Source: an uncultured Thermoleophilia bacterium
GTDB lineage: Bacteria; Actinomycetota; Thermoleophilia; UBA2241
DNA length: 64,000 nucleotides
Assembly: GCA_963798285.1 (NCBI GenBank)
Contig: CAWCSR010000003.1
Coordinates: 500 to 64,499, forward strand
Reading direction: 5' to 3'
Shown: piece by piece, positions 2,986 through 52,678 of the stretch
How the letters are laid out: each line of letters starts with the position of its first letter
Position numbering within the stretch: the first letter of the stretch is position 1
Program-made: the position numbers and the translations under genes
Notes under the pieces: generated by a model
Told to the model about the DNA's origin: nothing
The model's database searches: none
Seen by the model: only the letters and a program-made list of their open reading frames with translations

Positions 2986-3062
2986 TGGCGCGCCCGGCAG
3001 GATTCGAACCTGCGACCTGAAGATTAGAAGTCTCCTGCTCTATCCAGCTGAGCTACGGGCGC
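2986..3062 (-). tRNA. tRNA-Arg(TCT)
   Basis: GCGCCCGTAGCTCAGCTGGATAGAGC...CT-TCT-AA...GGTTCGAATCC...CCA, 77 nt cloverleaf. Confidence 0.96.
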
Positions 3063-3109: not shown

Positions 3110-3185
3110 TGGAGCGGGAGACGGGTTTCGAACCCGCGACCCTCAGCTTGGAAGGCTGATGCTCTACCAACTGAGCTACTCCCGC
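3110..3185 (-). tRNA. tRNA-Gly(TCC)
   Basis: GCGGGAGTAGCTCAGTTGGTAGAGC...CT-TCC-AA...GGTTCGAAACCC...CCA, 76 nt. Confidence 0.96.
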
Positions 3186-3196
3186 TCGAGAGAAGC

Positions 3197-3241
3197 TGGT
3201 CGGGACGGCGAGATTTGAACTCGCGACCCCCTGCTCCCAAA
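3197..3241 (-). repeat. att site: duplicated 3' 45 nt of tRNA-Pro
   Basis: Identical to 11959-12003 (TGGTCGGGACGGCGAGATTTGAACTCGCGACCCCCTGCTCCCAAA). Identity ends at the anticodon loop. Confidence 0.95.
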
Positions 3242-3326
3242 CTAGTAGCGGACAGTCACCTACGCTCGTCTCGACTCATCACGGAGACTCTACCACGGCT
3301 GACCCGGTGAATCCGAGGCGGCGCAT

Positions 3327-3346
3327 TTGCGCCAGCACTTGCGCCG
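3327..3346. repeat. Arm-type site pair TTGCGCC(A/G) x2 near the left att
   Basis: Copies at 3327 and 3339 (12-bp period). The same pair with the same spacing occurs at 11882 and 11894 near the right att. Confidence 0.6.
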
Positions 3347-3365
3347 ACCCGCGCGCCGGCCGGGA

Positions 3366-3614
3366 TCACGAAGCCAGTCTGTGGCGAGCCTCGGCCCTTG
3401 CATACTGCGCGACACGGGCGGCGCGCTCCCTCTCGGGCAGACGGGGCGCGGATCCCGGCCGCGGGCACCGGCCATGAACGAGTCCCCGACCAGGACGATA
3501 CCAGCCGAGGAGCGCGCGCTCCTCGAGGCTGATCGCCTGGTCACAGGCGGCGCAGTAAACCGGGTCGGCCCCATAGATCTCGAGCTGGTCGTCGTTGAGT
3601 GCGCACCGGCTCAT
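3366..3614 (-). CDS. Small Cys/His-rich (CxxC...HGRC) protein
   Basis: 82 aa, ATGA-coupled to the primase-ATPase stop; homolog at 1..212. Confidence 0.7.
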   Translation of the reverse strand: MSRCALNDDQLEIYGADPVYCAACDQAISLEERALLGWYRPGRGLVHGRCPRPGSAPRLPERERAARVAQYARAEARHRLAS

Positions 3615-5830
3615 GCCGCGCTCCCCGAGGGTTCGAGCCGCGCGTCGATCAGGCGGCGGGCCGCCTCCTCGTCCACGAGCACCAGGCGCGACTTGCCACC
3701 GTTCGGGCCGACCACGCCAGCAACCTCGAGCAGGTCCAACACCTGCTCCGCCTCGGCCTCATAGAGCCCGAGGCGCTTCTGCAGCAGCGACGAGGAGGCG
3801 GCGCCGACGGCGATGACGAGGTTGGCGGCGTCCCTGATGACAGGGATGGAGGAGTCAGCGGGCGCGGGCGTCGCGGTCTGGGCGACCGCGGGCACGAACT
3901 CTTCCGTCACCTCGGCGACGGCGGGTTCGTCGTCGCCGAGAAGACACCCGGGGCTATTGCCACCGGTGAAGGCTGAAACGGTGGAACACCCTATCTGTTC
4001 GGGCGTCGGCAGGCCGCAGTCAGACGGCAGCGGCTCGCCGACACGAAGCTTCGCCGGGCGTCCCTTGGCGGTCTCATCGTCGACGAGCCACCCGCCGCGC
4101 TTGGCCGTGGAAACGCGCCTGGAAACGGCCGCTTTTGAGAGGTTCAGGGCACGCATGATGTCGGTCTGTGAGGCATGCACGTGGCCGGCGGCGATATGGT
4201 CGGCGACGGCCTGGACGACCTCCCGCACCTTCTGCCCGGCACCGGTGTTCGACGCCTTGTAGACCTCCCCCACCAGATGGAACACCTCGGCGTAGTCCTC
4301 CGGAACAGCTACCCAGCGACCGGCGCGGTCGCGCTCGCGGCGAGGATGCCGAAGAACTGTGACCGCTTTGACCAGACTGAGCAGGCGGGCGAAGTCTCGC
4401 ACCACCCGCGTGTCGGCCGGCTGCGCCGCGAGGTGCTGAGCGATCGCACCGGCGAAGGGCACCACGACGTCCCACGGAGCCAGCTCCTGCAGATACCCCT
4501 GGTAGGCGACCAGCGCAGGGTCCGGGTCAGGACTGCCGCCCGCAAGCTCGAGCGATGCCTGGGCACGCAAGGCATGGCCTAGCTGAGCGTGGTCGTCGGG
4601 CACTTCGAGGATGAACACCCTGGTATCGAGCTGCGGGCCGAGGCGCCGGGTTGAGGTCGTCACCATCGTCGTCGGTCCGGGCTTGGAAATCTCGCGCACC
4701 GTGAAGTCGCCCGTCACCGGGTCGCGCACCGTGACCGCGTAGTGCAGGCGGTGGTCTGCCAACATGTTCCGGACGGCCGACGCCGCGGGGTTGTCCTCGC
4801 CGGCGGGCAGCGAGTCGGCCTCACCGAACACGGCCACGCGGTGCTCGAGCTCGGCGTCGTCATAGATCAGCGTCCGCGGCGAGCCGGCGTCGATCAGGTG
4901 ATACGCCGCCTCGGGGAGGTGGACGAGCGCGACGCCGAGGGCGTAGGACTTGCCGGCGGAGGCGGGCCCGAGGATCAGCAGGTGCACCGGCATCGCGCCC
5001 GTCCGCATGGCCAACACACGGCCGGTCAAGGCGAGCAGCACGACCGTCGGCGCGCCCAGGTCGCCGCCATATCCTTGACCGCGGATGGAGTCACGGAAGA
5101 GGGCGAGCGGGTCAGGGTGTTCGAGCACCGTCTTGGCCGCGGCGCGCAGCTCAGGGAGGCGGACCTCGTGCCGCCGGGCGACTATCTCGCTGAGCGGGAG
5201 GGCCGTGGCGCGCAGCTCGTCGACGAGCGCGGCCACGTCCCGGCCGTCCACGTGAGCATCGGAGATGTCTTTGACGCCTTCGGGAGCGACGATCACGCGG
5301 AGGTCCGGCAGGTCGCGTCCGATGCGCTCCGGAAAGTCCTCCGCATCGGGTTCCTGCCACACGTACACCTCAAGGCTCGCCAGATGTTCGGCCATGCCGG
5401 GCTGCCAGCTGGACTTGCCGGGCACGCCGACGACGGGGAGGCCGTAGTGCCAGCCGGCCCAGCAGTCGGACTCACCCTCGACGACGAGCACCCAGCCGGC
5501 GGCGCGGGCCGCGTCCAGACGGGTGAGGCCGTAGAGGTGAACCGCCTTGTCACCAGAGCGCCAGCGAAAGCGGTCATCGGCTCCGTCGGGGTTCTTGCAC
5601 AGGGCGTTCCGGAACCGCACCGCCAGTGTTCCCCCATCGGCGGCGTGGTATGGGATAGCGACGACGCTCCTGCCGCTGCGCATCCGCTGCGTGCAACCAT
5701 GCTCCACGAGCTCGGATTGGGGCAGCCGCTTGAGGTCCGCCAGCGACTCGAGCGTCACGCCCTGGTCTGGGTGTTCCACCGTTTCATCGTTTCCCGGTGA
5801 GAATGGCGAGGGTTCTTTTCCGGCGGTCAT
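3611..5830 (-). CDS. Toprim primase + P-loop ATPase/helicase + wHTH + C-terminal FtsK-gamma-like domain
   Basis: VLVVEGESD and VKDISD (Toprim); GPASAGKS (Walker A); SQTDIMRALNLSKAAVSRRV (HTH); AANLVIAVGAASSSLLQKRL...LEVAGVVGPNGGKSRLVL (FtsK-gamma pattern). Confidence 0.85.
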   Translation of the reverse strand: MTAGKEPSPFSPGNDETVEHPDQGVTLESLADLKRLPQSELVEHGCTQRMRSGRSVVAIPYHAADGGTLAVRFRNALCKNPDGADDRFRWRSGDKAVHLYGLTRLDAARAAGWVLVVEGESDCWAGWHYGLPVVGVPGKSSWQPGMAEHLASLEVYVWQEPDAEDFPERIGRDLPDLRVIVAPEGVKDISDAHVDGRDVAALVDELRATALPLSEIVARRHEVRLPELRAAAKTVLEHPDPLALFRDSIRGQGYGGDLGAPTVVLLALTGRVLAMRTGAMPVHLLILGPASAGKSYALGVALVHLPEAAYHLIDAGSPRTLIYDDAELEHRVAVFGEADSLPAGEDNPAASAVRNMLADHRLHYAVTVRDPVTGDFTVREISKPGPTTMVTTSTRRLGPQLDTRVFILEVPDDHAQLGHALRAQASLELAGGSPDPDPALVAYQGYLQELAPWDVVVPFAGAIAQHLAAQPADTRVVRDFARLLSLVKAVTVLRHPRRERDRAGRWVAVPEDYAEVFHLVGEVYKASNTGAGQKVREVVQAVADHIAAGHVHASQTDIMRALNLSKAAVSRRVSTAKRGGWLVDDETAKGRPAKLRVGEPLPSDCGLPTPEQIGCSTVSAFTGGNSPGCLLGDDEPAVAEVTEEFVPAVAQTATPAPADSSIPVIRDAANLVIAVGAASSSLLQKRLGLYEAEAEQVLDLLEVAGVVGPNGGKSRLVLVDEEAARRLIDARLEPSGSAA

Positions 5831-6075
5831 CTGCGCCCCCGTGAACTCCGTCTGCGAGGGAAGAGGTCGCGCCACTCCAAGCCGAGAGCGCCGAGCACGG
5901 CGCTCGTCTCGCACCCCGCCCAGCAGCGCAGCAGCACAGTGCCGTCGCCAGCCTCTCGAATGCCGAGCGAGGGCGTGCGATCCTTGTGGGCTGGGCACGC
6001 GGCCAGGTACTTGCCCTCGCCGCACCTCTTCACGTGCTCGAGTCGCTCAAGAAGGAGGTCGATAGGCGCGCTCAT
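5827..6075 (-). CDS. Stand-alone primase zinc-binding domain (CHC2-like)
   Basis: ACPAHKDRTPSL...LLRCWAGC; ATGA-coupled to the Toprim gene. Confidence 0.85.
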   Translation of the reverse strand: MSAPIDLLLERLEHVKRCGEGKYLAACPAHKDRTPSLGIREAGDGTVLLRCWAGCETSAVLGALGLEWRDLFPRRRSSRGRR

Positions 6076-6089
6076 CGTGGTGACCACCG

Positions 6090-6317
6090 TCAGGAGGCGT
6101 CGCGGCGGCACGCGCGTTCTGTGACAACCTCGTCGATCTCGTCGGCGGCGAAGAGCACGCGCCGCAGTTCGAAGAGGTTGACCGGGTGTAGGACTCCCTG
6201 CTTGGTCCAGCGGTCGATCGTGACCACGCTGACCCCGAGGCGACCCGCGACCTGTTCGCGGGTCAGCAGCCGGGCGTCGGGCGCGGCCGGCTTCCGAGAG
6301 CTCATCTTGCGTGCCAT
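6090..6317 (-). CDS. AlpA/excisionase-like HTH protein
   Basis: LLTREQVAGRLGVSVVTIDRWTKQGVL; GGAGG RBS. Confidence 0.85.
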   Translation of the reverse strand: MARKMSSRKPAAPDARLLTREQVAGRLGVSVVTIDRWTKQGVLHPVNLFELRRVLFAADEIDEVVTERACRRDAS

Positions 6318-6611
6318 GCGGTCCTCCAGACTCGTTTGCTGTTGTCACGAGTCTGCCGTGACCGTCACTCGACCCCCTGCCCTTTCGTGCTTTCTAGCCG
6401 CAAACTAGAGGTTTCTGTTGCGTCAGGCTGGGCGCCGGCCGGCGCGTGCCGCCTCACCAGGGTCCGCACCCGCGTCGTGCGGTACGCGAAGTCCGCCCAC
6501 AGGCGCTGTGTCGAATCTGTGTCAAGGACGGCCTTTCCAGCCTCCGCGCCGGTTTCGGGTGACGGTCGCACGACCATGGAGACGGAACCTGAACCATGAG
6601 TCGAAAGGACC

Positions 6612-7904
6612 GTGAAGATGTTGAAGCGACCGTTTGAGAGCGGCGGGGATCCCCAGCTGCGGAGCCTCCGCGAGCGTCACGAGAGGCTGACCGCCGGCGC
6701 CTCCGAGGCTTGGGCCAACCTGGAGCAGGCGCGCAAGGGCTACGGCGCCGAGCCCACCACGGCGCAGACCCGCGCCCTCGAGACCATGCAGGCCGAGTAC
6801 GACCGCACGGCCGCCGAGTCGACCGGAGCCGAGAGCGAGTACCGGGACGCACTCTCCCGCTACGACGGCTCCGGCACCGGTACGGCCTCCGGTACGGCCT
6901 CCGGCGCACGCCGTATCGGTGAGCTGCGCTCCTACGGCCGTGGTGACGACCTACGCGCGAAGATGCGCGCCGACGGACCGACGCTCGGCGAGATCGTGCG
7001 CTCCATGGTCACCGGCAGGGCCATCTCGGGCTACAGCCTGCTCAGCTCCGGCGTCTCCGGGGCGCTGCCGGACTACGAGGTGCTCGGCATCGTCGGGCAA
7101 GCCCTGCAGGAGTCCGTGATCTTCTCGGCGGGTGCCCGTGTCGTCCCGATGGACGCTCCGTCCGTGAAGCTCGCCCGGGTCACCTCGACGCCGGACATCG
7201 AGATCAAGCCCGAGGCCGACGACCGCGACCTGACCGACCAGGCGATCGGCTTCACGCCGGTGTCGATGGACGCCAACTCCGCGTTCCTGTACGGCACTAC
7301 GACCCTCGAGGCCGTCGAGGACGTGGCGAACCTCGAGGAGACGATCACCGGAATCTTCAGCCGCCAGCTCGCCCGCGCCTGGGACAAGTACGCCCTCGGC
7401 GGCGACGGCAACGGTGAGCCGCTCGGCCTCGGCTACATGTTCGCCGCCGACGGCGTCAGCGAGGTCGACGCCGACGCCGAGGCTCCGCTCGCGAGCTACG
7501 CCAAGCTCATCGAGGCGGTCGGCCGCGTGCGGGCCCAGCACCACAACCCCACGGCCGTCGTCCTGGACGTGCCGAGCTGGGCCACCTTGGCGATGCTGAC
7601 CGCGACCGACGACCAGCCGCTCGTGCCACCGAAGGCGTACAGCGACCTCGGCGAGTACGTCAGCGACTTCGTCTCGCTGGGCGCCGGCAGCACGTCGAAC
7701 GCCGTCGTGGGCGACTTCAGCCGGCTCCTGGTCGGTGTGCGCACCAACGTGCAGGTTGAGGTCAACACCACCGGTCCCGAGTTCAAGCAGGGCAAGGTCG
7801 CGATCAGGGCCCGGATGCGCTGGGGCTCGTTCGTCGACGATCCGTCAGCCTTCGCCGTCGTCCGTAACCTGCACGCCGTCTCGCTGGCTCCCGACGAGTC
7901 CTGA
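6612..7904 (+). CDS. HK97-family major capsid protein with N-terminal coiled-coil (delta/scaffold-like) region
   Basis: N-terminal ~100 aa helical region, then ...LARAWDKYALGGDGNGEPLGL...AVVGDFSRLLVGVR...FKQGKVAIRARMRW...DPSAFAVV. Confidence 0.9.
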   Translation: MKMLKRPFESGGDPQLRSLRERHERLTAGASEAWANLEQARKGYGAEPTTAQTRALETMQAEYDRTAAESTGAESEYRDALSRYDGSGTGTASGTASGARRIGELRSYGRGDDLRAKMRADGPTLGEIVRSMVTGRAISGYSLLSSGVSGALPDYEVLGIVGQALQESVIFSAGARVVPMDAPSVKLARVTSTPDIEIKPEADDRDLTDQAIGFTPVSMDANSAFLYGTTTLEAVEDVANLEETITGIFSRQLARAWDKYALGGDGNGEPLGLGYMFAADGVSEVDADAEAPLASYAKLIEAVGRVRAQHHNPTAVVLDVPSWATLAMLTATDDQPLVPPKAYSDLGEYVSDFVSLGAGSTSNAVVGDFSRLLVGVRTNVQVEVNTTGPEFKQGKVAIRARMRWGSFVDDPSAFAVVRNLHAVSLAPDES

Positions 7905-7908
7905 CGCC

Positions 7909-8400
7909 ATGCGGACCCACGAGACGGTCACCTACTCCCAGGCGCCTCCCGGCGCCGCGGTCGCGGCCGACGCCGCCGGCCGGGTGAGCGGCCTCGCCAT
8001 CGTGTGGGACGTGCCCTCGCTCGACCGCGGCGGCTACCGCGACGTGTTCGCGCGTGGCTGCCTGCAGATCGGTCCCGACGTTACGGCGCTGCTCAGTCAC
8101 GACGCATCTGTGATCCTCGGCCGCACAACCGCCGGCACGCTCAGGCTCGATGACCAGGCCGACGGCGTTCACTTCAACCTCGACTTGCCGGACACGCAGG
8201 CGGGCCGCGACCTGCTCACGTCGCTGAAGCGTGGCGACGTGAGCCAGTGCTCTTTCTCGGCCCTGATCCTCGAGGAGGACTGGGACTACAACCGCATACT
8301 GCAGACTCCAGTTCGCACGATCCTGTCCGCAGAGCTCCTCGAGATATCCGTCGTACCGATGCCGGCCTTCCCGGCGACGACCGCCCAGGTGGTGGAGTGA
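7909..8400 (+). CDS. HK97-family prohead (maturation) protease
   Basis: GLAIVWD, LLSHD (His), LGRTTAGTLRL, LPDTQAGRDL, SQCSFS (Ser), EISVVPMPAFP. Confidence 0.92.
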   Translation: MRTHETVTYSQAPPGAAVAADAAGRVSGLAIVWDVPSLDRGGYRDVFARGCLQIGPDVTALLSHDASVILGRTTAGTLRLDDQADGVHFNLDLPDTQAGRDLLTSLKRGDVSQCSFSALILEEDWDYNRILQTPVRTILSAELLEISVVPMPAFPATTAQVVE

Positions 8401-8738
8401 TGGCCGACCGCACAACGCACTGCCGCTACTGTGGCCGTGCTCTCACGAATGCCGAGACGGGCAGGCCGCTGCTCTTCTGCAACGACGTGCACCGCAAGTG
8501 GTACGCCAAGGCGACCGCCGACCAGGTGCAGGCGTTCCTGGACGACGTGGCCGCCACCCGCACCGTGAGTGAAGTACGCGACCTGCAGCACGATCTGCTG
8601 GCGCTGCGGGCCTCCTGCCAGCGCCTCGCCCACCGCCTCGAGGCCGCGGGCGACGGCGTGACGCATGCCCGCATCGCCGCTGTCGCCGCCGAGCTCGGGC
8701 GCACGCTCGCCCGCCACTTCGGCAGGCAGGAGGAGTGA
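8400..8738 (+). CDS. Zn-finger (CxxC...CxxxH) plus helical protein, paralog 1
   Basis: HCRYCGRAL...GRPLLFCNDVHRKWY; TGATG-coupled to the protease. Confidence 0.7.
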   Translation: MADRTTHCRYCGRALTNAETGRPLLFCNDVHRKWYAKATADQVQAFLDDVAATRTVSEVRDLQHDLLALRASCQRLAHRLEAAGDGVTHARIAAVAAELGRTLARHFGRQEE

Positions 8739-8752
8739 TGAGCCGCGCCGCT

Positions 8753-8836
8753 GGGGGTAGGGGGTTGAATCACGAACGGCGACAGACGCAGACCCTGCCT
8801 ACCCCCGTCCGCGCGCAATCCTCAAACTGGAGTTTT
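8753..8836 (+). other. Putative cos-like packaging site
   Basis: G-rich GGGGGTAGGGGG, 9-bp inverted repeat (8753-8761/8798-8806), then CGCGCGCAA. Resembles cos regions of HK97-like phages (recalled pattern, not searched). Confidence 0.4.
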
Positions 8837-8846
8837 GGTCACGATA

Positions 8847-9239
8847 ATGAATGAGGGTGTGACGAAATGCCCCGAGTGCGGCGTCCCGGTGCACCAGGCG
8901 GGCGGGAGAGGGCGCGCTAGGATCTACTGCTCCGACTCCTGCCGCAAGGCGGCCCACCGGAGCCGCTCGACGTCTTGGGAGTGGCTGCAGGAGAACAGGC
9001 CGCAGGCCTCCAGCTGGTCGAACGAAGGCCTCCCGAACCTCGCCGAGGAGGTGCCGGCGCCGAGCGGCTCCCAGGTGGACCAGGTGGCCGAGAGCATCAT
9101 CGTGGCCAGTGCCCTGGTCGCTGAGTTCCGTCGTCACGCCGTGGCTTCGACTTCACCGCGACTGGCCGCCAGGTGCGGGCGCGTCGCGGATGCGCTCGAC
9201 GCGGCGCTGGCCACCGAGTTCGCCGAGGTGTTCAAGTGA
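8847..9239 (+). CDS. Zn-finger (CxxC...YCSxxC) plus helical protein, paralog 2
   Basis: KCPECGVPV...GRARIYCSDSCRKAAHR; C-terminal helix similar to 8400..8738. Confidence 0.75.
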   Translation: MNEGVTKCPECGVPVHQAGGRGRARIYCSDSCRKAAHRSRSTSWEWLQENRPQASSWSNEGLPNLAEEVPAPSGSQVDQVAESIIVASALVAEFRRHAVASTSPRLAARCGRVADALDAALATEFAEVFK

Positions 9240-9570
9240 CGAGTTTCTGAAGCCCGTGGGCGGCGGCGTCCGATCGGCGTCGGCCTCGTCGTCCTCGGCT
9301 GGGCGGTCGGTCTTCCTCCTTTCCCGACCGTTCGGGAAGCTGAGACCAGCGGTTGTGTCGACCGCCCTCAGCAAAGGCGGCCCCGGGGGGACCACCCCCG
9401 GGGCCGCTGCACAAATGAATCCTCGACTCTTCGTCGTGGGGGGAAAGACAGTCTGCCTTTCGCGCACGCTCAGGCTCGTGATAGCGTCATATACAGAAAG
9501 CGGCTGTCTGCGTCGATGACAAACGCAGACTGTCTAATTGTTGTTATCTGTACTAGACCGTAGACGAAGG

Positions 9571-10512
9571 ATGGGGCCACCAATGGCGCATGATGCTGGG
9601 GCTGGCGACTCGGGCCACGACGCTGAAGCCATGCGGCAACTCCGCAGCCAAGCCCTGGTCACGCCGCCTGCGCAGCTCGGCATCGCTCCCAGCGAGGACT
9701 TCCCAATCGTCTACGGTGCCGTGATGGACTGGCCTGTCGGCGAAGAGACCGCCACAGTCGTGGCGTTCTGCGACGGCAACGTCAGCCTGTACACCACGTC
9801 GACCTTCGGCGTCATCGGCGGAGTCGGCCACGCTGCGGTCCGGGACAGCGCGCTCGTCTTCGTCCGGACTGCTGCGCCACAATACGAGGCTGCGACCCCG
9901 ACGTCGGACCCGCCCTTGCCAAGACCCGACCGTGTCCAGTTCTGCCTGCTCGGCTTCAACGGCGCCAGGCTCGTTGATGCTGACCTGGATGCCGTGTGCG
10001 CAGGGAACGACCGACTCAGCGACCTGTTCGACGCCGGTCAGGCGCTCCTGACTGAGCTGCGGCTTGTGGCTGACCCAGAGTCGGCGAACGAGCCACCCGA
10101 GGAGGCAGGTCGCGAGTCAGCTGCCGGCGCGTACGTGAACTGCCTGCTGACGCTGATGGCGGAGGGAACCGTCCGGTCGGTCGAGATCCGGTCATCAGCT
10201 CCGGTCCCGGACCTCGAGCAGCTCGCCGCGGGCAATGCTGACGCGGGGTGGGTGGCCGATGAGGGGCTGCGCTACGACTCCATCGAGCCGCTGGAGGTGA
10301 TTCTCCTCTTGAGTCGCCTCGCGAAAGTCCCGGGGTCAGCCTTCCTGGCCAGGCGGGGAGAGCTGCGTGCAGACCGTGCATGTCCGGATGGGTCGCGTGT
10401 TCCCTGCCTCTTCGACGTCCGCATCGGCCGTTCCAACCGCTCTGCAACCGTCGTCGTCGCTCCGAGCGATGACCCGAGGGTCGCACCCCAGGGTGGGATG
10501 GCTGCAGGATGA
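9571..10512 (+). CDS. Hypothetical cargo protein
   Basis: Open ORF of about 310 aa with protein-like composition, convergent with the integrase. No family recognised; start uncertain (9571 or 9583). Confidence 0.7.
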   Translation: MGPPMAHDAGAGDSGHDAEAMRQLRSQALVTPPAQLGIAPSEDFPIVYGAVMDWPVGEETATVVAFCDGNVSLYTTSTFGVIGGVGHAAVRDSALVFVRTAAPQYEAATPTSDPPLPRPDRVQFCLLGFNGARLVDADLDAVCAGNDRLSDLFDAGQALLTELRLVADPESANEPPEEAGRESAAGAYVNCLLTLMAEGTVRSVEIRSSAPVPDLEQLAAGNADAGWVADEGLRYDSIEPLEVILLLSRLAKVPGSAFLARRGELRADRACPDGSRVPCLFDVRIGRSNRSATVVVAPSDDPRVAPQGGMAAG

Positions 10513-10660
10513 GCCAGATAACAAGTGCATCAACCTGATGCGCCGGAGCGCCGAGATACACTGTGGGCGCACAGCGCACAGGTTATGCACCAAGCGTTAG
10601 ACGCATCGACCGGAGGCCGGAGATGCCTCCGCTCTTCCCATGGATCTGGAGGCCTCTGGT

Positions 10661-11857
10661 CTAGCCTAGCAGGCCGTCGAGAGCCTTCACCGCTGCCTCC
10701 TGGGAGCCAGGGAGAAGGTGCGCGTATCGGTCGAGAGTCATGGCCGCCGAGGCATGGCCCACCCTCGCACTCACGTCCTTCACGTTGACCCCGGCATGGA
10801 GCAGGTGCGTGATGTGGGTGTGGCGCAGGTCATGGAAACGGAGACCCTCGTAGCCCAGAGCTCTCATCTCACGACGAAAGACGTGCTGCAGGGCCTTCGG
10901 TGAGCGCGGGCGGCCGGCCGGGAAGTCCTTGGGCTCGGCAACGACGTAGTTCGACGTCGGCGTCGTGTCGGGAAACACGAGGTCCTGGTCTTCCCATCTC
11001 CAGCCAAGGCGCAACCGCAACGCATTCTGCCGCCGCCGGTGCTCCTTCAGAATCTGCACCGTGTCGGGATGGAGAGGCACCGTGCGCCGGCTACCCTTGG
11101 TCTTGGGTGCCTTCAGTCTGAGCGTCGTGCCGACCTCCTCCAGCGTATGACGCACGATCAGCGTGCCCTTCTTCAGGTCGACATCGGACCACTTCAGCGC
11201 GAGAATCTCGCCCAGGCGCAGGCCGGTGCTGACAGCGACAGCGACGGGCGCCCACAGTGCACGACGCGCCTTCTGCTTCTTCGGGTCCGCGTCATGGAGC
11301 GCCTGAACAAGCTTCTTCGTCTCCACCGGGGTGAGCACGCGGAACTCCCGGGCCTCATGGCGCGGCAGCTTGAGCCGCGCAGCGGGGTTGCGCGGCATGT
11401 AGCCCCAGTCGACGGCCTGGTTGAGCGCCACCCGGAGGGTACGGTGGATGTGGTGGACCATGCTCACGGAGACCTGTTTGCCGAGGAGGCTCCCGTAGTA
11501 CCCCTGCACGTCCTGCGGACGGATCCGCTCCACCTTCAGCGCCGATAGGGGCGACTGCTTCAGGTAGTTCTTGCAGATCATCTCGTATAGCTCGTGGGTG
11601 CGCGCGGAGCGGTTCGGCTTGATGACGCCGGCGAGCCAGTCGTCCAGAAACTCCGACAGGCTCCCGGGCCGCTCGATTGTGAGCTCGCCGCTGCGCTTCT
11701 CCTGGTTGAGCGTGAGGAGCTTGTCGTGCGCCTCGTCCTCGGTCGCACAGGTGAAACTCTGACGATGGTACCGGCCATCCTTGCCGCGGCCGGTGGAGAT
11801 CGTCACCTGCCAGGTCTCGCCCCTCTGGCGAACACTTCCCTGTAGTCGTCTCGGCAC
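10661..11857 (-). CDS. Tyrosine integrase of element 2 (intact)
   Basis: TGLRLGEILAL, APKT, FHDLRH, VGH and RY catalytic set; N-terminal arm-binding-like region. Confidence 0.96.
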   Translation of the reverse strand: MPRRLQGSVRQRGETWQVTISTGRGKDGRYHRQSFTCATEDEAHDKLLTLNQEKRSGELTIERPGSLSEFLDDWLAGVIKPNRSARTHELYEMICKNYLKQSPLSALKVERIRPQDVQGYYGSLLGKQVSVSMVHHIHRTLRVALNQAVDWGYMPRNPAARLKLPRHEAREFRVLTPVETKKLVQALHDADPKKQKARRALWAPVAVAVSTGLRLGEILALKWSDVDLKKGTLIVRHTLEEVGTTLRLKAPKTKGSRRTVPLHPDTVQILKEHRRRQNALRLRLGWRWEDQDLVFPDTTPTSNYVVAEPKDFPAGRPRSPKALQHVFRREMRALGYEGLRFHDLRHTHITHLLHAGVNVKDVSARVGHASAAMTLDRYAHLLPGSQEAAVKALDGLLG

Positions 11858-11881
11858 ATCTCCCCCCGTCTGAGGCTATCT

Positions 11882-11901
11882 TTGCGCCAAATCTTGCGCC
11901 A
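11882..11901. repeat. Arm-type site pair TTGCGCCA x2 near the right att
   Basis: Copies at 11882 and 11894, matching 3327/3339. Confidence 0.6.
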
Positions 11902-11958
11902 CGCTGTCGCGACAGTCAACGAGGAGTCCAAGGAAAGTGCCATTTTGCAGGAGAATTA

Positions 11959-12035
11959 TGGTCGGGACGGCGAGATTTGAACTCGCGACCCCCTGCTCCC
12001 AAAGCAGGTGCGCTACCAGGCTGCGCCACGTCCCG
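11959..12035 (-). tRNA. tRNA-Pro(TGG), intact copy at the integration junction
   Basis: CGGGACGTGGCGCAGCCTGGTAGCGC...TT-TGG-GA...AGTTCAAATCTC...CCA, 77 nt; TATACT -10 at 12047-12052. Confidence 0.96.
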
Positions 12036-52169: not shown

Positions 52170-52204
52170 AAAGGCCCCTCGTCCAGCTGGACCGAGGGGC
52201 CTTT
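52170..52204 (-). terminator. Hairpin terminator after rnpB
   Basis: AAAGGCCCCTC...GAGGGGCCTTT inverted repeat. Confidence 0.65.
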
Positions 52205-52207
52205 CTG

Positions 52208-52592
52208 TAGCAAGCCGTAAGCCGGATCCTGTCGTGGGTGACCATCCATCTCGGGCCGTCCGTTGCCGGGCGGCTCATGCGGCCGGAACCCGGGAGTCTC
52301 GGGCGAGCAACCCTCAAACACTCCCCTATTTGGCCTTGCACCGGGCGGGGCTTGCCGAGCCGGCCTGTCACCAGGACCGCTGGTGAGCTCTTACCTCACC
52401 GTTTCACCCTTACCCGCACCCCTCGAAAGGGGCCGCTGGCGGTTTACTCTCTGTTGCGCTTTCCCTCGGGTTTCCCCGGCTGGCCGTTAACCAGCGCCCT
52501 GCTCTGTGGTGTCCGGACTTTCCTCGACGAGGAGCCTGATGGGGCTCCGAAGAGCGCCCTCACGCGACCCCGACGCGGCCACCTGGCTTGCC
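52208..52592 (-). ncRNA. rnpB: RNase P RNA (class A)
   Basis: GAGGAAAGTCCGG...GAAAGCGCAACAGAGAGTAAACCGCC...GGGTGAAACGGTGAGGTAAGAGCTCACC...ACAGGATCCGGCTTA; extended -10 TGG-TACACT at 52598-52606. Confidence 0.96.
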
Positions 52593-52678
52593 CAAGGAGT
52601 GTACCACCGCGGTAGGAAGTTCAGACCGACAGCCGGACCGGCTCTGCCGCGCGACGGACGGCCGGACCGGCGCTGCGC

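What the first reader, a model, noticed from the sequence alone, without database searches (positions are those of the whole stretch)
3197..12003. Complete 8.8-kb satellite with its own HK97 capsid and protease but no portal, terminase, tail or repressor
Seen: both att ends are present, so the gene list is complete: int, cargo, two Zn-finger genes, protease, MCP, AlpA, primase ZnF, Toprim-ATPase and a small Zn protein. Established: cf-PICIs carry MCP, protease, portal, terminase and head-tail genes, whereas SaPIbov5-type PICIs carry a cos site and a single MCP-like size-redirection protein (Ccm). Inference: this element matches neither. It may build or remodel capsids and mature them itself while borrowing portal, terminase and tails from an HK97-like helper. 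MCP precedes the protease (the reverse of HK97), and the capsid module is transcribed divergently from the replication module.
Basis: partly seen in the sequence, partly recalled or inferred. Interest (0 to 1): 0.85.

Follow-up and report, generated by a model that had tools for sequence, protein, structure and literature searches.

The report
Small capsid-encoding phage satellite in tRNA-Pro
An 8.8-kb mobile island in an uncultured actinobacterium carries its own phage capsid protein and capsid protease but no portal, terminase or tail, so it most likely rides on a helper phage, as the small capsid-bearing islands already known from mycobacteria are thought to do.

Summary
A 45-nt exact repeat (3197-3241 / 11959-12003) bounds an 8.76-kb insertion in the 3' end of tRNA-Pro. 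Ten of 11 same-genus loci examined have the empty site. The eleventh, from another species, carries the same element (integrase 398/398 aa identical, flank about 82% identical) with a different cargo gene. Genes: Tyr integrase, cargo, two Zn-ribbon proteins, S78 protease and HK97-type MCP, divergent from excisionase/AlpA-like HTH, primase Zn-finger, Toprim-ATPase and a small ORF. No portal, terminase, tail or lysis gene was found in the element, and no portal or terminase in the 72%-complete genome. It is not a deletion remnant: a second bounded 8.2-kb element has the same MCP-protease-ZnF-ZnF module with a different integrase and replication module. The claim that it matches no known type is overstated. 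Integrase + excisionase + primase + prohead protease + capsid is the published inventory of mycobacterial phiRv1, and SatelliteFinder's PICI model counts a capsid component as core; I find 4 of its 5 core functions here, with TerS missing. New features are the MCP-before-protease order and two conserved Zn-ribbon proteins where relatives carry TerS. Verdict: a new variant of a known kind. No helper, particle or packaging site is shown.

The parts
3197..3241 (.). Distal att copy: the displaced 3' fragment of tRNA-Pro, 45 nt identical to 11959-12003.
3366..3614 (-). 82-aa ORF with CxxC...HxxC and no family. Its ATG overlaps the stop of the Toprim-ATPase gene (ATGA). Coding status is uncertain (GC3 0.65).
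3611..5830 (-). 739-aa replication protein: Toprim primase region (phrog_849, phrog_239), a P-loop ATPase stretch seen by eye in the translation, a winged helix, and a C-terminal FtsK-gamma domain (PF09397, 31.5 bits, cut-off 30.6).
5827..6072 (-). 81-aa CHC2 primase zinc-finger protein. It matches the N-terminus (positions 7-73 of 772) of phrog_6088 DNA primase (E 1.5e-15). It is a separate ORF, coupled by ATGA to the Toprim-ATPase gene.
6090..6317 (-). 75-aa HTH_17/MerR-like protein: excisionase or AlpA-like regulator (PF12728 E 7e-8; phrog_66 E 3e-10).
6318..6611 (.). Divergent intergenic region between the replication operon (-) and the capsid operon (+). It contains short inverted repeats (6327-6335/6347-6355). 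No consensus sigma-70 promoter was found.
6612..7904 (+). HK97-type major capsid protein, 430 aa (428 from the ATG at 6618), with an N-terminal stretch of about 125 aa covered by the full-length TIGR01554 model (delta-domain-like).
7909..8400 (+). S78 (HK97-family) prohead serine protease, 163 aa. The His (LLSHD) and Ser (QCS) columns are kept in all aligned relatives.
8400..8738 (+). ZnF-A, 112 aa: N-terminal Zn ribbon (C8, C11, C27 invariant) plus a helical C-terminal half. Its start overlaps the protease stop. It follows the MCP in every relative that extends that far.
8847..9239 (+). ZnF-B, 130 aa: a Zn ribbon (CxxC...CxxxC) similar only in its N-terminus to ZnF-A (E 6e-4). It is conserved after ZnF-A in L009, L010 and L013.
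9377..9407 (+). Perfect 13-bp GC hairpin after ZnF-B, the likely end of the capsid operon. It has no T tract, so the terminator scan did not call it.
9538..10512 (+). Cargo gene, 324 aa, in a swappable slot (about 9547-10574). It has no family. 97 homologue clusters were found; every source name given is 'hypothetical protein', and the named records come from several phyla.
10661..11857 (-). Tyrosine integrase, 398 aa, next to the intact tRNA-Pro.
11959..12035 (-). tRNA-Pro(tgg). Its 3' 45 nt (11959-12003) are the proximal att copy.

Best explanation
This is an intact, recently mobile, helper-dependent phage satellite of the PICI kind. It is closest in gene inventory to the mycobacterial phiRv1/phiRv2-type islands.

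Shown:
- It is a precise 8.76-kb insertion in tRNA-Pro.
- It has its own integrase, excisionase/AlpA-like HTH and primase-ATPase replication module.
- It has a separate operon of HK97-type MCP (with a delta-like N-terminal domain), S78 prohead protease and two Zn-ribbon proteins.
- No portal, terminase, connector, tail or lysis gene was found.
- It has a swappable cargo slot next to the integrase.

Inferred:
- On infection by, or induction of, an unidentified HK97-like helper phage, the island excises and replicates.
- Its MCP assembles small shells on the helper's portal, and its own protease removes the delta domain.
- The helper's terminase fills these shells with the 8-9-kb island, and the helper's connectors and tails complete them.
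- ZnF-A and ZnF-B always travel with the MCP and sit where more distant relatives carry a P27-type TerS. They are the best candidates for the factor that directs packaging to the island, or that interferes with the helper.

I put about 0.75 on 'helper-dependent satellite' and about 0.45 on 'builds the whole shell itself'.
For: Precise insertion, with the empty site in 10 of 11 same-genus loci examined.

Recent horizontal spread. The eleventh locus (G049, another species) holds the same element at the same tRNA. Its integrase is 398/398 aa identical, and 1544 nt are 98.6% identical. A 2543-nt stretch that is mostly chromosomal flank is 82.6% identical. Contigs 97-100% identical to parts of the element occur in 4 runs from 4 studies: soil, two digesters and wastewater.

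Intact, compact operons with ATGA/TGATG overlaps.

MCP and protease exceed curated cut-offs, and the MCP profile finds HK97 gp5 in the PDB (E 8e-5).

No portal or terminase. All 10 ORFs were scanned against Pfam and PHROGs and 8 against NCBIfam. Six-frame searches of the genome with PF04860, PF05133, PF03354, PF03237 and PF05119 found nothing.

Not a remnant.
- MCP-protease-ZnF-A recurs in 7 of 10 distinct related contigs.
- L009 is a second bounded element (8213 bp, tRNA-Pro(ggg)) with the same four-gene module but a 29%-identical integrase and an unrelated HTH plus IstB/DnaC-like module.
- Three more distant bounded elements measure 8659, 9221 and 8695 bp. This agrees with the published PICI median of 9.5 kb (PMC10085698 passage).
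- Two of those three carry a Terminase_4 TerS upstream of the MCP, which is the classical PICI layout.

Cargo swap at 9546: a CPBP/Rce1-like protease in G049 (PF02517 E 4e-17), and contigs of two runs that leave the window sequence there.
Against: No helper is known. The MCP has no tblastn match in 50,697 phage records at E 1e-5 or in IMG/VR by pattern scan. No portal or terminase was found in the genome, which is only 72% complete.

No packaging site or TerS was identified. ZnF-A shows no similarity to the TerS of L032 (hhalign probability 0.2%), and its role is pure inference.

No circular junction was listed among the joints of the four runs (contigs only, 2 joints not shown). No RNA holder was listed. 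There is therefore no direct evidence of excision, expression or particles.

How an MCP would assemble on a foreign portal is unexplained. Capsid-forming PICIs and the Streptomyces satellite Ando carry their own portal (PMC10085698 passage; PMC13587820 passages).

The published view of phiRv1 is that there is no evidence it makes capsids or particles (PMC12268328 passage).
Confidence: 0.7

Rival explanations
1. Ccm-like size redirection. The island's MCP does not build the shell alone. It co-assembles with the helper's MCP, for example at the pentamers, to force small capsids. The island's protease is needed because the helper's protease does not process it.
For: SaPIbov5 Ccm is an MCP homologue with a delta domain. 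It fills only the pentamers of T=4 shells and cannot form capsids alone (PMC8569155 passages). The element lacks a portal, as SaPIbov5 does. More distant 8.7-9.2-kb relatives have an MCP but no detectable protease.
Against: The island carries its own S78 protease, and its MCP aligns over the full length of the TIGR01554 model. SaPIbov5 has no protease. Ccm is 24% identical to its helper's CP, whereas no phage MCP relative of this protein was found.
Confidence: 0.2
2. A decaying or domesticated prophage remnant that no longer moves as a particle. The capsid genes are relics, or are kept only to poison capsid assembly of incoming phages (defence by interference).
For: No portal, terminase or tail. 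No helper was found. phiRv1 has never been shown to form particles. Relatives in G109 and G210 have MCP-portal-protease, so the portal may have been lost in this lineage. The cargo slot carries a CPBP/Abi-type gene in G049.
Against: All genes are intact and tightly coupled. Both att copies are exact. A near-identical element sits in a second species whose flanks are about 82% identical, and it occurs in four studies. The same four-gene module sits in a second bounded element with different integration and replication modules. Five bounded elements fall within 8.2-9.2 kb. This pattern fits selection for transfer, not decay. Transfer by another route is not excluded.
Confidence: 0.1
3. An encapsulin-like or otherwise non-viral protein compartment carried by an integrative element.
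For: HK97-fold shells without portals exist (encapsulins; recalled). No portal is present here.
Against: The window's MCP does not match Linocin_M18/encapsulin in Pfam. It matches the phage model TIGR01554 over its full length, is followed by a prohead protease, and sits in an island with PICI layout.
Confidence: 0.03

Closest known systems
phiRv1 / phiRv2 and the candidate PICIs of Mycobacterium (PMC12268328 passage; PMC10654092 passages; PMC10085698 passages)
   Same: Host phylum Actinomycetota. About 9-10 kb. The inventory is integrase + excisionase + primase + prohead protease + capsid protein. No tail or lysis genes. Some mycobacterial members use Tyr integrases at tRNA genes. No helper is known.
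   Different: phiRv1 uses a large serine integrase (title of a reference listed) and sits in the biotin operon. It has an annotated terminase (Rv1578c), which this element lacks. Here two Zn-ribbon proteins follow the protease. From the gene numbers and the c suffix, the phiRv1 order is terminase-protease-capsid (my reading); here it is capsid-protease. I did not test sequence homology to the phiRv proteins because none of their sequences was at hand.
PICI as defined by SatelliteFinder (PMC10085698 passages)
   Same: Integrase, AlpA/MerR-type regulator, primase-replicase and a capsid-type component. None of the forbidden portal, connector, tail or holin genes. Size is near the 9.5-kb median. 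The accessory slot lies beside the integrase.
   Different: No TerS was detected (4 of 5 core functions, which would be Type B). The paper says a serine protease and HNH are only occasionally found in PICI. The tool itself was not run.
Capsid-forming PICI (cf-PICI) (PMC10085698 passages; preprint 10.1101/2022.09.08.507074, seen only as the start of its abstract in the search listing)
   Same: Own MCP and own prohead protease. Tails would be taken from a helper.
   Different: cf-PICI also carry a portal, TerL, TerS and head-tail adaptor/connector. None of these is present here.
SaPIbov5 with Ccm (PMC8569155 passages)
   Same: A satellite that carries an MCP homologue with a delta domain but no portal or terminase.
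   Different: SaPIbov5 has no protease. Ccm fills only the pentamers and is a recognisable homologue of its helper's CP. Whether a cos site exists here is unknown.
Streptomyces satellites Ando / MulchRoom / MiniFlayer (PMC13587820 passages)
   Same: Actinobacterial satellites that make small capsids of their own and use helper tails.
   Different: Ando has a 13-kb genome with terminase, portal, capsid and scaffold but no replication genes. That is the opposite division of labour from this element.

Membership tests
PICI (SatelliteFinder core model) | Integrase | tested here: met
   PF00589 E 3e-28; phrog_1 E 1e-75
PICI (SatelliteFinder core model) | Regulator of AlpA/MerR/Stl type | tested here: met
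   HTH_17 E 7e-8, MerR_1 at its cut-off, phrog_66 'excisionase and transcriptional regulator' E 3e-10. The Pfam Phage_AlpA model itself was not hit.
PICI (SatelliteFinder core model) | Primase-replicase | tested here: met
   CHC2 Zn-finger ORF (phrog_6088 E 1.5e-15) plus the Toprim/ATPase protein (phrog_849, phrog_239). SatelliteFinder's own profiles were not run.
PICI (SatelliteFinder core model) | Capsid or capsid-modification component | tested here: inconclusive
   An MCP is present (PF05065, TIGR01554). Whether SatelliteFinder's 'capsid/capsidPE' profiles hit it could not be tested.
PICI (SatelliteFinder core model) | Small terminase | tested here: not met
   No TerS by Pfam or PHROGs on any ORF. 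PF05119 six-frame search of the genome was negative. ZnF-A against the L032 TerS gave hhalign probability 0.2%. The model accepts 4 of 5 as Type B.
PICI (SatelliteFinder core model) | No portal, connector, tail or holin | tested here: met
PICI (biological definition) | Induction, packaging and transfer by a helper phage | not testable with these tools
   No helper was identified. No circular junction was listed in the contigs of 4 runs.
cf-PICI | Own portal, TerL and head-tail adaptor/connector | tested here: not met
   None was found in the element or the genome.
cf-PICI | Own MCP and prohead protease | tested here: met
phiRv1/phiRv2-like elements | Inventory of integrase, excisionase, primase, prohead protease and capsid in about 10 kb | tested here: met
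   searches compared with the PMC12268328 passage
phiRv1/phiRv2-like elements | Terminase gene (Rv1578c-like) | tested here: not met
   No terminase family was hit.
phiRv1/phiRv2-like elements | Sequence homology of MCP, protease and primase to the phiRv proteins | not tested
HK97-type MCP | Full-length match including the N-terminal delta region | tested here: met
   TIGR01554 residues 32-417 on model positions 10-383 of 385, 79 bits against a cut-off of 27.5. The MCP profile hits HK97 gp5 chains at E 8e-5.
HK97-type MCP | Chainmail cross-link Asn (HK97 N356; numbering recalled) | tested here: not met
   In the profile-to-HK97 alignment the Asn of FVKN aligns with a Gly that is invariant in the family. 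The alignment is weak, so confidence is low.
Encapsulin | Linocin_M18-type shell protein without protease | tested here: not met
   No PF04454 hit for the window's MCP. A prohead protease follows it.

The most novel reading that the evidence does not exclude
The element and its relatives define a third capsid strategy for satellites, between Ccm-type PICIs and cf-PICIs: a 'shell-only' satellite. It encodes a complete self-assembling HK97-type MCP with a delta domain and its own maturation protease. It builds a small shell sized for 8-9 kb on a borrowed portal. A pair of lineage-specific Zn-ribbon proteins (ZnF-A and ZnF-B) replaces TerS and directs the helper's terminase to the island.
Probability: 0.3. 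Interest if true: 0.7.

Novelty: new variant of a known kind. Interest (0 to 1): 0.5.

Why it matters
Small actinobacterial islands with a capsid gene (phiRv1/phiRv2 and the mycobacterial candidate PICIs) have been known since 1999, yet none has a known helper or a demonstrated particle. This element gives that class a clean, demonstrably mobile example outside Mycobacterium, in an uncultured digester and wastewater actinobacterium.

Several features make it a tractable case:
- exact att sites, with empty sites in sister species;
- a near-identical copy in a second species;
- a swappable cargo slot;
- a conserved four-gene head module that can be expressed heterologously.

It poses a precise question: can an HK97-type MCP and protease from a satellite assemble on a foreign portal, and what replaces TerS? 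The narrow size range of five bounded elements (8.2-9.2 kb) suggests a capsid-imposed genome size that could be measured.

Tried and rejected
Portal or TerL hidden among the unassigned ORFs: rejected. ZnF-A (112 aa), ZnF-B (130 aa) and the 82-aa ORF are too small. The 324-aa cargo has no hit in Pfam, PHROGs or PADLOC and only a sub-threshold TonB_C hit in NCBIfam. It is absent from L009 and replaced in G049.

Deletion remnant: rejected for the close family. It remains possible as evolutionary origin, because the G109 and G210 loci have MCP-portal-protease.

ZnF proteins as HNH or TerS: no support.
- The only HNH signal is the Zn ribbon of phrog_1271.
- hhalign against the L032 TerS found nothing.
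- The PDB profile search found nothing below E 0.08.
- tblastn against phages found nothing at E 0.05.

Searches with thin or no result:
- A conserved non-coding packaging site downstream of ZnF-B: the alignment of 5 loci showed conservation only between the window and G049.
- Promoter and terminator scan: one promoter-like and one terminator-like site, no more than in shuffles.
- The search for related loci with the single MCP in genome contigs found none. With the profile in IMG/VR it found none. In genome contigs the profile found one 1952-nt contig.
- PDB phmmer with the MCP, the Toprim-ATPase protein and the L037 493-aa protein found nothing significant.

Sequencing runs:
- No RNA holder was listed.
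- The joints 3185->11959 (X5, side 27) and 3187->11986 (X4, side 30) could be empty sites. They are short and lie in tRNA genes, so I do not count them.
- A part without cover, or a circular junction that is not listed, is no evidence either way.

Attachment repeats were not found in L035-L039.

I did not use complex prediction: I claim no binding, and neighbouring genes alone are not reason enough.

Supplements of PMC10085698 (Figure S5 and the lists of actinobacterial PICIs) and of PMC10654092 (Data sets S4 and S5) were not seen. They may already list elements like this one.

Searches behind 'not in print'. None returned a paper describing an MCP + protease + Zn-ribbon module or this family.

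Full report
WHAT IS THERE. The window is high-GC DNA (about 63-73% in 500-nt windows). A related contig's record title reads 'MAG: Actinomycetota bacterium'. Runs that hold the stretch are labelled anaerobic digester, wastewater and soil metagenomes.

A direct repeat of 54 nt (93% identical) has its first 45 nt identical: 3197-3241 and 11959-12003. The right copy is the 3' part of tRNA-Pro(tgg), 11959-12035 on the minus strand. The left copy lies 11 nt from tRNA-Gly (3110-3185), which is followed by tRNA-Arg (2986-3062).

GENES. ORF listing, a GC3 frame analysis and four HMM libraries give ten genes. Coordinates and scores are in the parts list.

The minus-strand operon holds:
- an HTH_17 excisionase/AlpA-like protein (6090-6317);
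- a CHC2 primase zinc-finger protein (5827-6072);
- a 739-aa Toprim / P-loop ATPase / winged-helix / FtsK-gamma protein (3611-5830);
- an 82-aa ORF (3366-3614).
The last three are chained by ATGA overlaps that I read directly.

The plus-strand operon starts across a 294-nt spacer and holds:
- the MCP (6612-7904);
- the S78 protease (7909-8400);
- ZnF-A (8400-8738, with a TGATG overlap);
- ZnF-B (8847-9239).
These junctions were read. The operon ends at a perfect 13-bp GC hairpin, 9377-9407.

A 324-aa cargo gene (9538-10512) follows. Last comes a tyrosine integrase (10661-11857, minus strand) next to the tRNA.

The MCP passes PF05065 and matches the equivalog model TIGR01554 over residues 32-417, so the N-terminal delta region is included. 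A profile of 12 homologues finds HK97 gp5 chains in the PDB at E 8e-5. The protease passes PF04586 and TIGR01543. Its His and Ser columns are kept in five aligned relatives; that these two residues are the catalytic pair is my recollection of HK97 gp4. In the weak alignment to HK97, the cross-linking Asn aligns with an invariant Gly. Covalent chainmail is therefore unlikely.

IT IS AN INSERTION, AND IT MOVES. I searched the 53 other genomes of the genus with the right flank and looked at the 11 best loci. In 10 of 11, tRNA-Pro, tRNA-Gly and tRNA-Arg are contiguous, with 8-15 nt between Pro and Gly. That is the empty site.

In the eleventh (G049) the tRNA-Pro is followed by an integrase identical to the window's in 398 of 398 residues.
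- 1544 nt there are 98.6% identical to window 12117-10575.
- A 2543-nt alignment that is mostly chromosomal flank is 82.6% identical.
- The next 1375 nt do not match the window and replace 9547-10574.
- After that, 328 nt are 97% identical to 9546-9219, where the contig ends.
- The other end of the element (att, tRNA-Gly, tRNA-Arg) opens another contig of that genome.

The replacement segment encodes an Rce1-like/CPBP membrane protease (PF02517, E 4e-17) and a 135-aa ORF with no family.

Contigs of four public runs from four studies were laid on the stretch. They cover most of the element at 97-100% identity. Two of them (X2 record 15 and X4 record 23) leave the window sequence at 9546.

So the element has spread recently between species, and the slot between the head operon and the integrase exchanges cargo.

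The window's own cargo belongs to a family of 97 clusters. Every name that a source gives is 'hypothetical protein', and the named records are MAGs labelled Planctomycetes, Verrucomicrobiota and Bacteroidota.

WHAT IS MISSING. No ORF of the element matches a portal, large or small terminase, connector, tail or lysis family in Pfam or PHROGs.

Six-frame family searches of the whole assembly (3.94 Mb, 7 contigs, 72.4% complete) gave:
- no Phage_portal, SPP1_portal, TerL_ATPase, Terminase_6N or Terminase_4;
- only this one Phage_capsid and this one Peptidase_S78.
So no resident helper is visible. In a 72%-complete assembly that is not proof of absence.

THE FAMILY. The MCP has 18 homologue clusters among 5.8 billion proteins. 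It has no tblastn match at E 1e-5 in 50,697 phage records. It occurs in 2 of 88 other genomes of its order.

Among 10 distinct related contigs with an MCP at least 44% identical (L004 and L006 counted once, L005 as part of L055):
- 7 show MCP, then protease, then ZnF-A (L006, L007, L008, L009, L010, L013, L018);
- ZnF-B follows in those that reach far enough (L006 start only, L009, L010, L013);
- L055 has ZnF-A directly after the MCP and no protease;
- L011 and L012 show the MCP only.

L009 lies in an 80-kb contig. There a 54-nt repeat (98% identical) derived from tRNA-Pro(ggg) bounds 8213 bp. The bounded segment holds, in order:
- an integrase only 29% identical to the window's;
- an unknown 173-aa ORF;
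- a Cro-type HTH;
- an unknown 352-aa ORF;
- an IstB/DnaC-like ATPase;
- the same four-gene head module;
- one more unknown ORF.
The head module is therefore a cassette that travels with different integration and replication modules. That is the opposite of what a random deletion remnant would show.

ZnF-A is a very small family: 7 clusters among 1.84 billion representatives. It has invariant C8, C11 and C27 and a helical C-terminal half. All 8 members hit phrog_2308, which has no known function.

THE WIDER CLASS. The MCP profile found 9 of 400 other sampled Actinomycetota genomes at E 1e-15 or better. I fetched 8 loci from 7 of them.

Three loci are bounded by tRNA-derived repeats: 8659 bp (tRNA-Glu), 9221 bp (tRNA-Ala) and 8695 bp (tRNA-Pro).
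- L032 reads integrase, unknown, HTH_3, HTH_17/AlpA, D5_N primase, DnaG-type Zn-ribbon protein, Terminase_4 TerS (27.4 bits, over its cut-off), two unknowns, MCP, two unknowns. That is the textbook PICI order.
- L033 has integrase, DnaB-like helicase, Phage_rep_O, a weak Terminase_4 hit and an MCP.
- L034 has an integrase, an HTH_36 protein, a 542-aa MCP and an unknown 669-aa protein.
- None of the three has an S78 protease, either by my HMM or by Pfam on the ORFs scanned.

Three other loci (two in G109, one in G210) read MCP, then portal, then S78 protease, then a conserved unknown protein of 470-695 aa. Some distant relatives do therefore carry a portal, and the window's lineage may have lost one.

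Two loci (L035, L039) could not be delimited.

Of the five genomes searched genome-wide, three (G234, G096, G278) have neither PF04860 nor PF03354. G149 has both, on a contig other than the one with the island.

The five bounded elements measure 8762, 8213, 8659, 9221 and 8695 bp.

HOW IT PROBABLY WORKS. Only the anatomy and the mobility are shown. The rest is inference from the PICI paradigm.

The inferred cycle is this. A helper phage supplies portal, terminase, connectors, tails and lysis. The island excises (integrase plus the HTH_17 protein) and replicates (primase-ATPase). It then expresses the head operon.

A full-length MCP with a delta region and its own protease suggest that the island makes and matures its own shell. 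In SaPIbov5, by contrast, Ccm fills only the pentamers and no island protease exists (PMC8569155 passages).

The narrow size range fits a capsid-imposed genome length. I scaled capacity as T to the power 1.5 from HK97 (T=7, about 40 kb; recalled). That gives roughly 11 kb for T=3 and 17 kb for T=4. This is my rough inference, not a result.

The two Zn-ribbon proteins are the only conserved members of the head operon without a role. They stand where relatives have TerS, which makes them candidates for packaging specificity.

COMPARISON WITH WHAT IS KNOWN.
- phiRv1 is described as a 10-kb element with integrase, excisionase, primase, terminase, prohead protease and capsid, with no evidence of particles (PMC12268328 passage).
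- Abad and colleagues define candidate Mycobacterium PICIs as small integrated regions with an integrase and an MCP. Some of these sit at tRNA genes with Tyr integrases and some carry replication genes. The phiRv elements are placed among them (PMC10654092 passages).
- De Sousa and colleagues find PICI in 66% of mycobacterial genomes and equate those of M. tuberculosis with phiRv1/phiRv2. Their PICI model counts a capsid component among five core functions and forbids portal, connector, tail and holin. They note that a serine protease and HNH occur occasionally in PICI (PMC10085698 passages).

By function, the window's element has four of the five core components and none of the forbidden ones. 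It fails the cf-PICI definition because it has no portal, TerL or connectors. It is unlike the Streptomyces satellites, which carry terminase, portal, capsid and scaffold but no replication genes (PMC13587820 passages).

What I did not find in print (searches; supplements not seen) is the MCP-before-protease order with the ZnF-A/ZnF-B pair and no TerS.

VERDICT. It is wrong that no known type fits.

Noticed in passing
L014, L015, L016, L017 (metagenome contigs of 6.8-7.7 kb, 53-55% GC): These small contigs carry a Tyr integrase (PF00589) and an HK97-type MCP (PF05065 E 1e-49, 31-34% identical to the window's), plus unknown ORFs and no detectable protease. L015 begins and ends inside the MCP gene, and L014 is a permutation of it. 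They look like circular, perhaps excised, elements of about 7 kb from a lower-GC host.
   Followed up: partly
L036 8100-11107, L037 3182-8060, L038 760-5253: Three loci in two genomes of another actinobacterial family have the unusual order MCP, portal (PF04860), S78 protease, then a conserved protein of 470-695 aa with no Pfam or PDB match. In L036 an integrase and a 737-aa replication-type protein lie nearby. No PF03354 TerL was found in G109; G210 was not searched for it. This may be a portal-bearing sister type.
   Followed up: partly
L054 1544-2918 (G049): The sister copy of the element carries an Rce1-like/CPBP (Abi-type) membrane protease and a 135-aa hydrophobic ORF in place of the window's 324-aa cargo.
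   Followed up: partly
L055 5310-7083 (G026, 7.1-kb contig): A same-genus element at tRNA-Arg(cct) has ZnF-A directly after the MCP with no protease between them. ZnF-A, not the protease, is therefore the MCP's most constant neighbour.
   Followed up: partly
window 12792 joined to 6128 (runs X2, X4, X5): Contigs of three runs join a place in the right chromosomal flank to a place inside the HTH_17 gene, with 18 other letters between them (table 5c). I have no explanation; it may be a related HTH gene in another context.
   Followed up: no
L033 12726-12806: Four tandem copies of a 21-nt repeat, spaced 18-24 nt, lie within the Phage_rep_O-like gene of the 9.2-kb element of G149. They look like iterons of an origin.
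   Followed up: no
window 52202-52594 (-): Bacterial RNase P RNA class A (265 bits). This is an ordinary chromosomal gene.
   Followed up: no
G149 contig C73 94073-96846: A portal (E 2e-104) and a TerL ATPase (E 5e-31) lie on a contig other than the one carrying the 9.2-kb MCP island of the same genome. This could be a resident helper prophage for that island.
   Followed up: no
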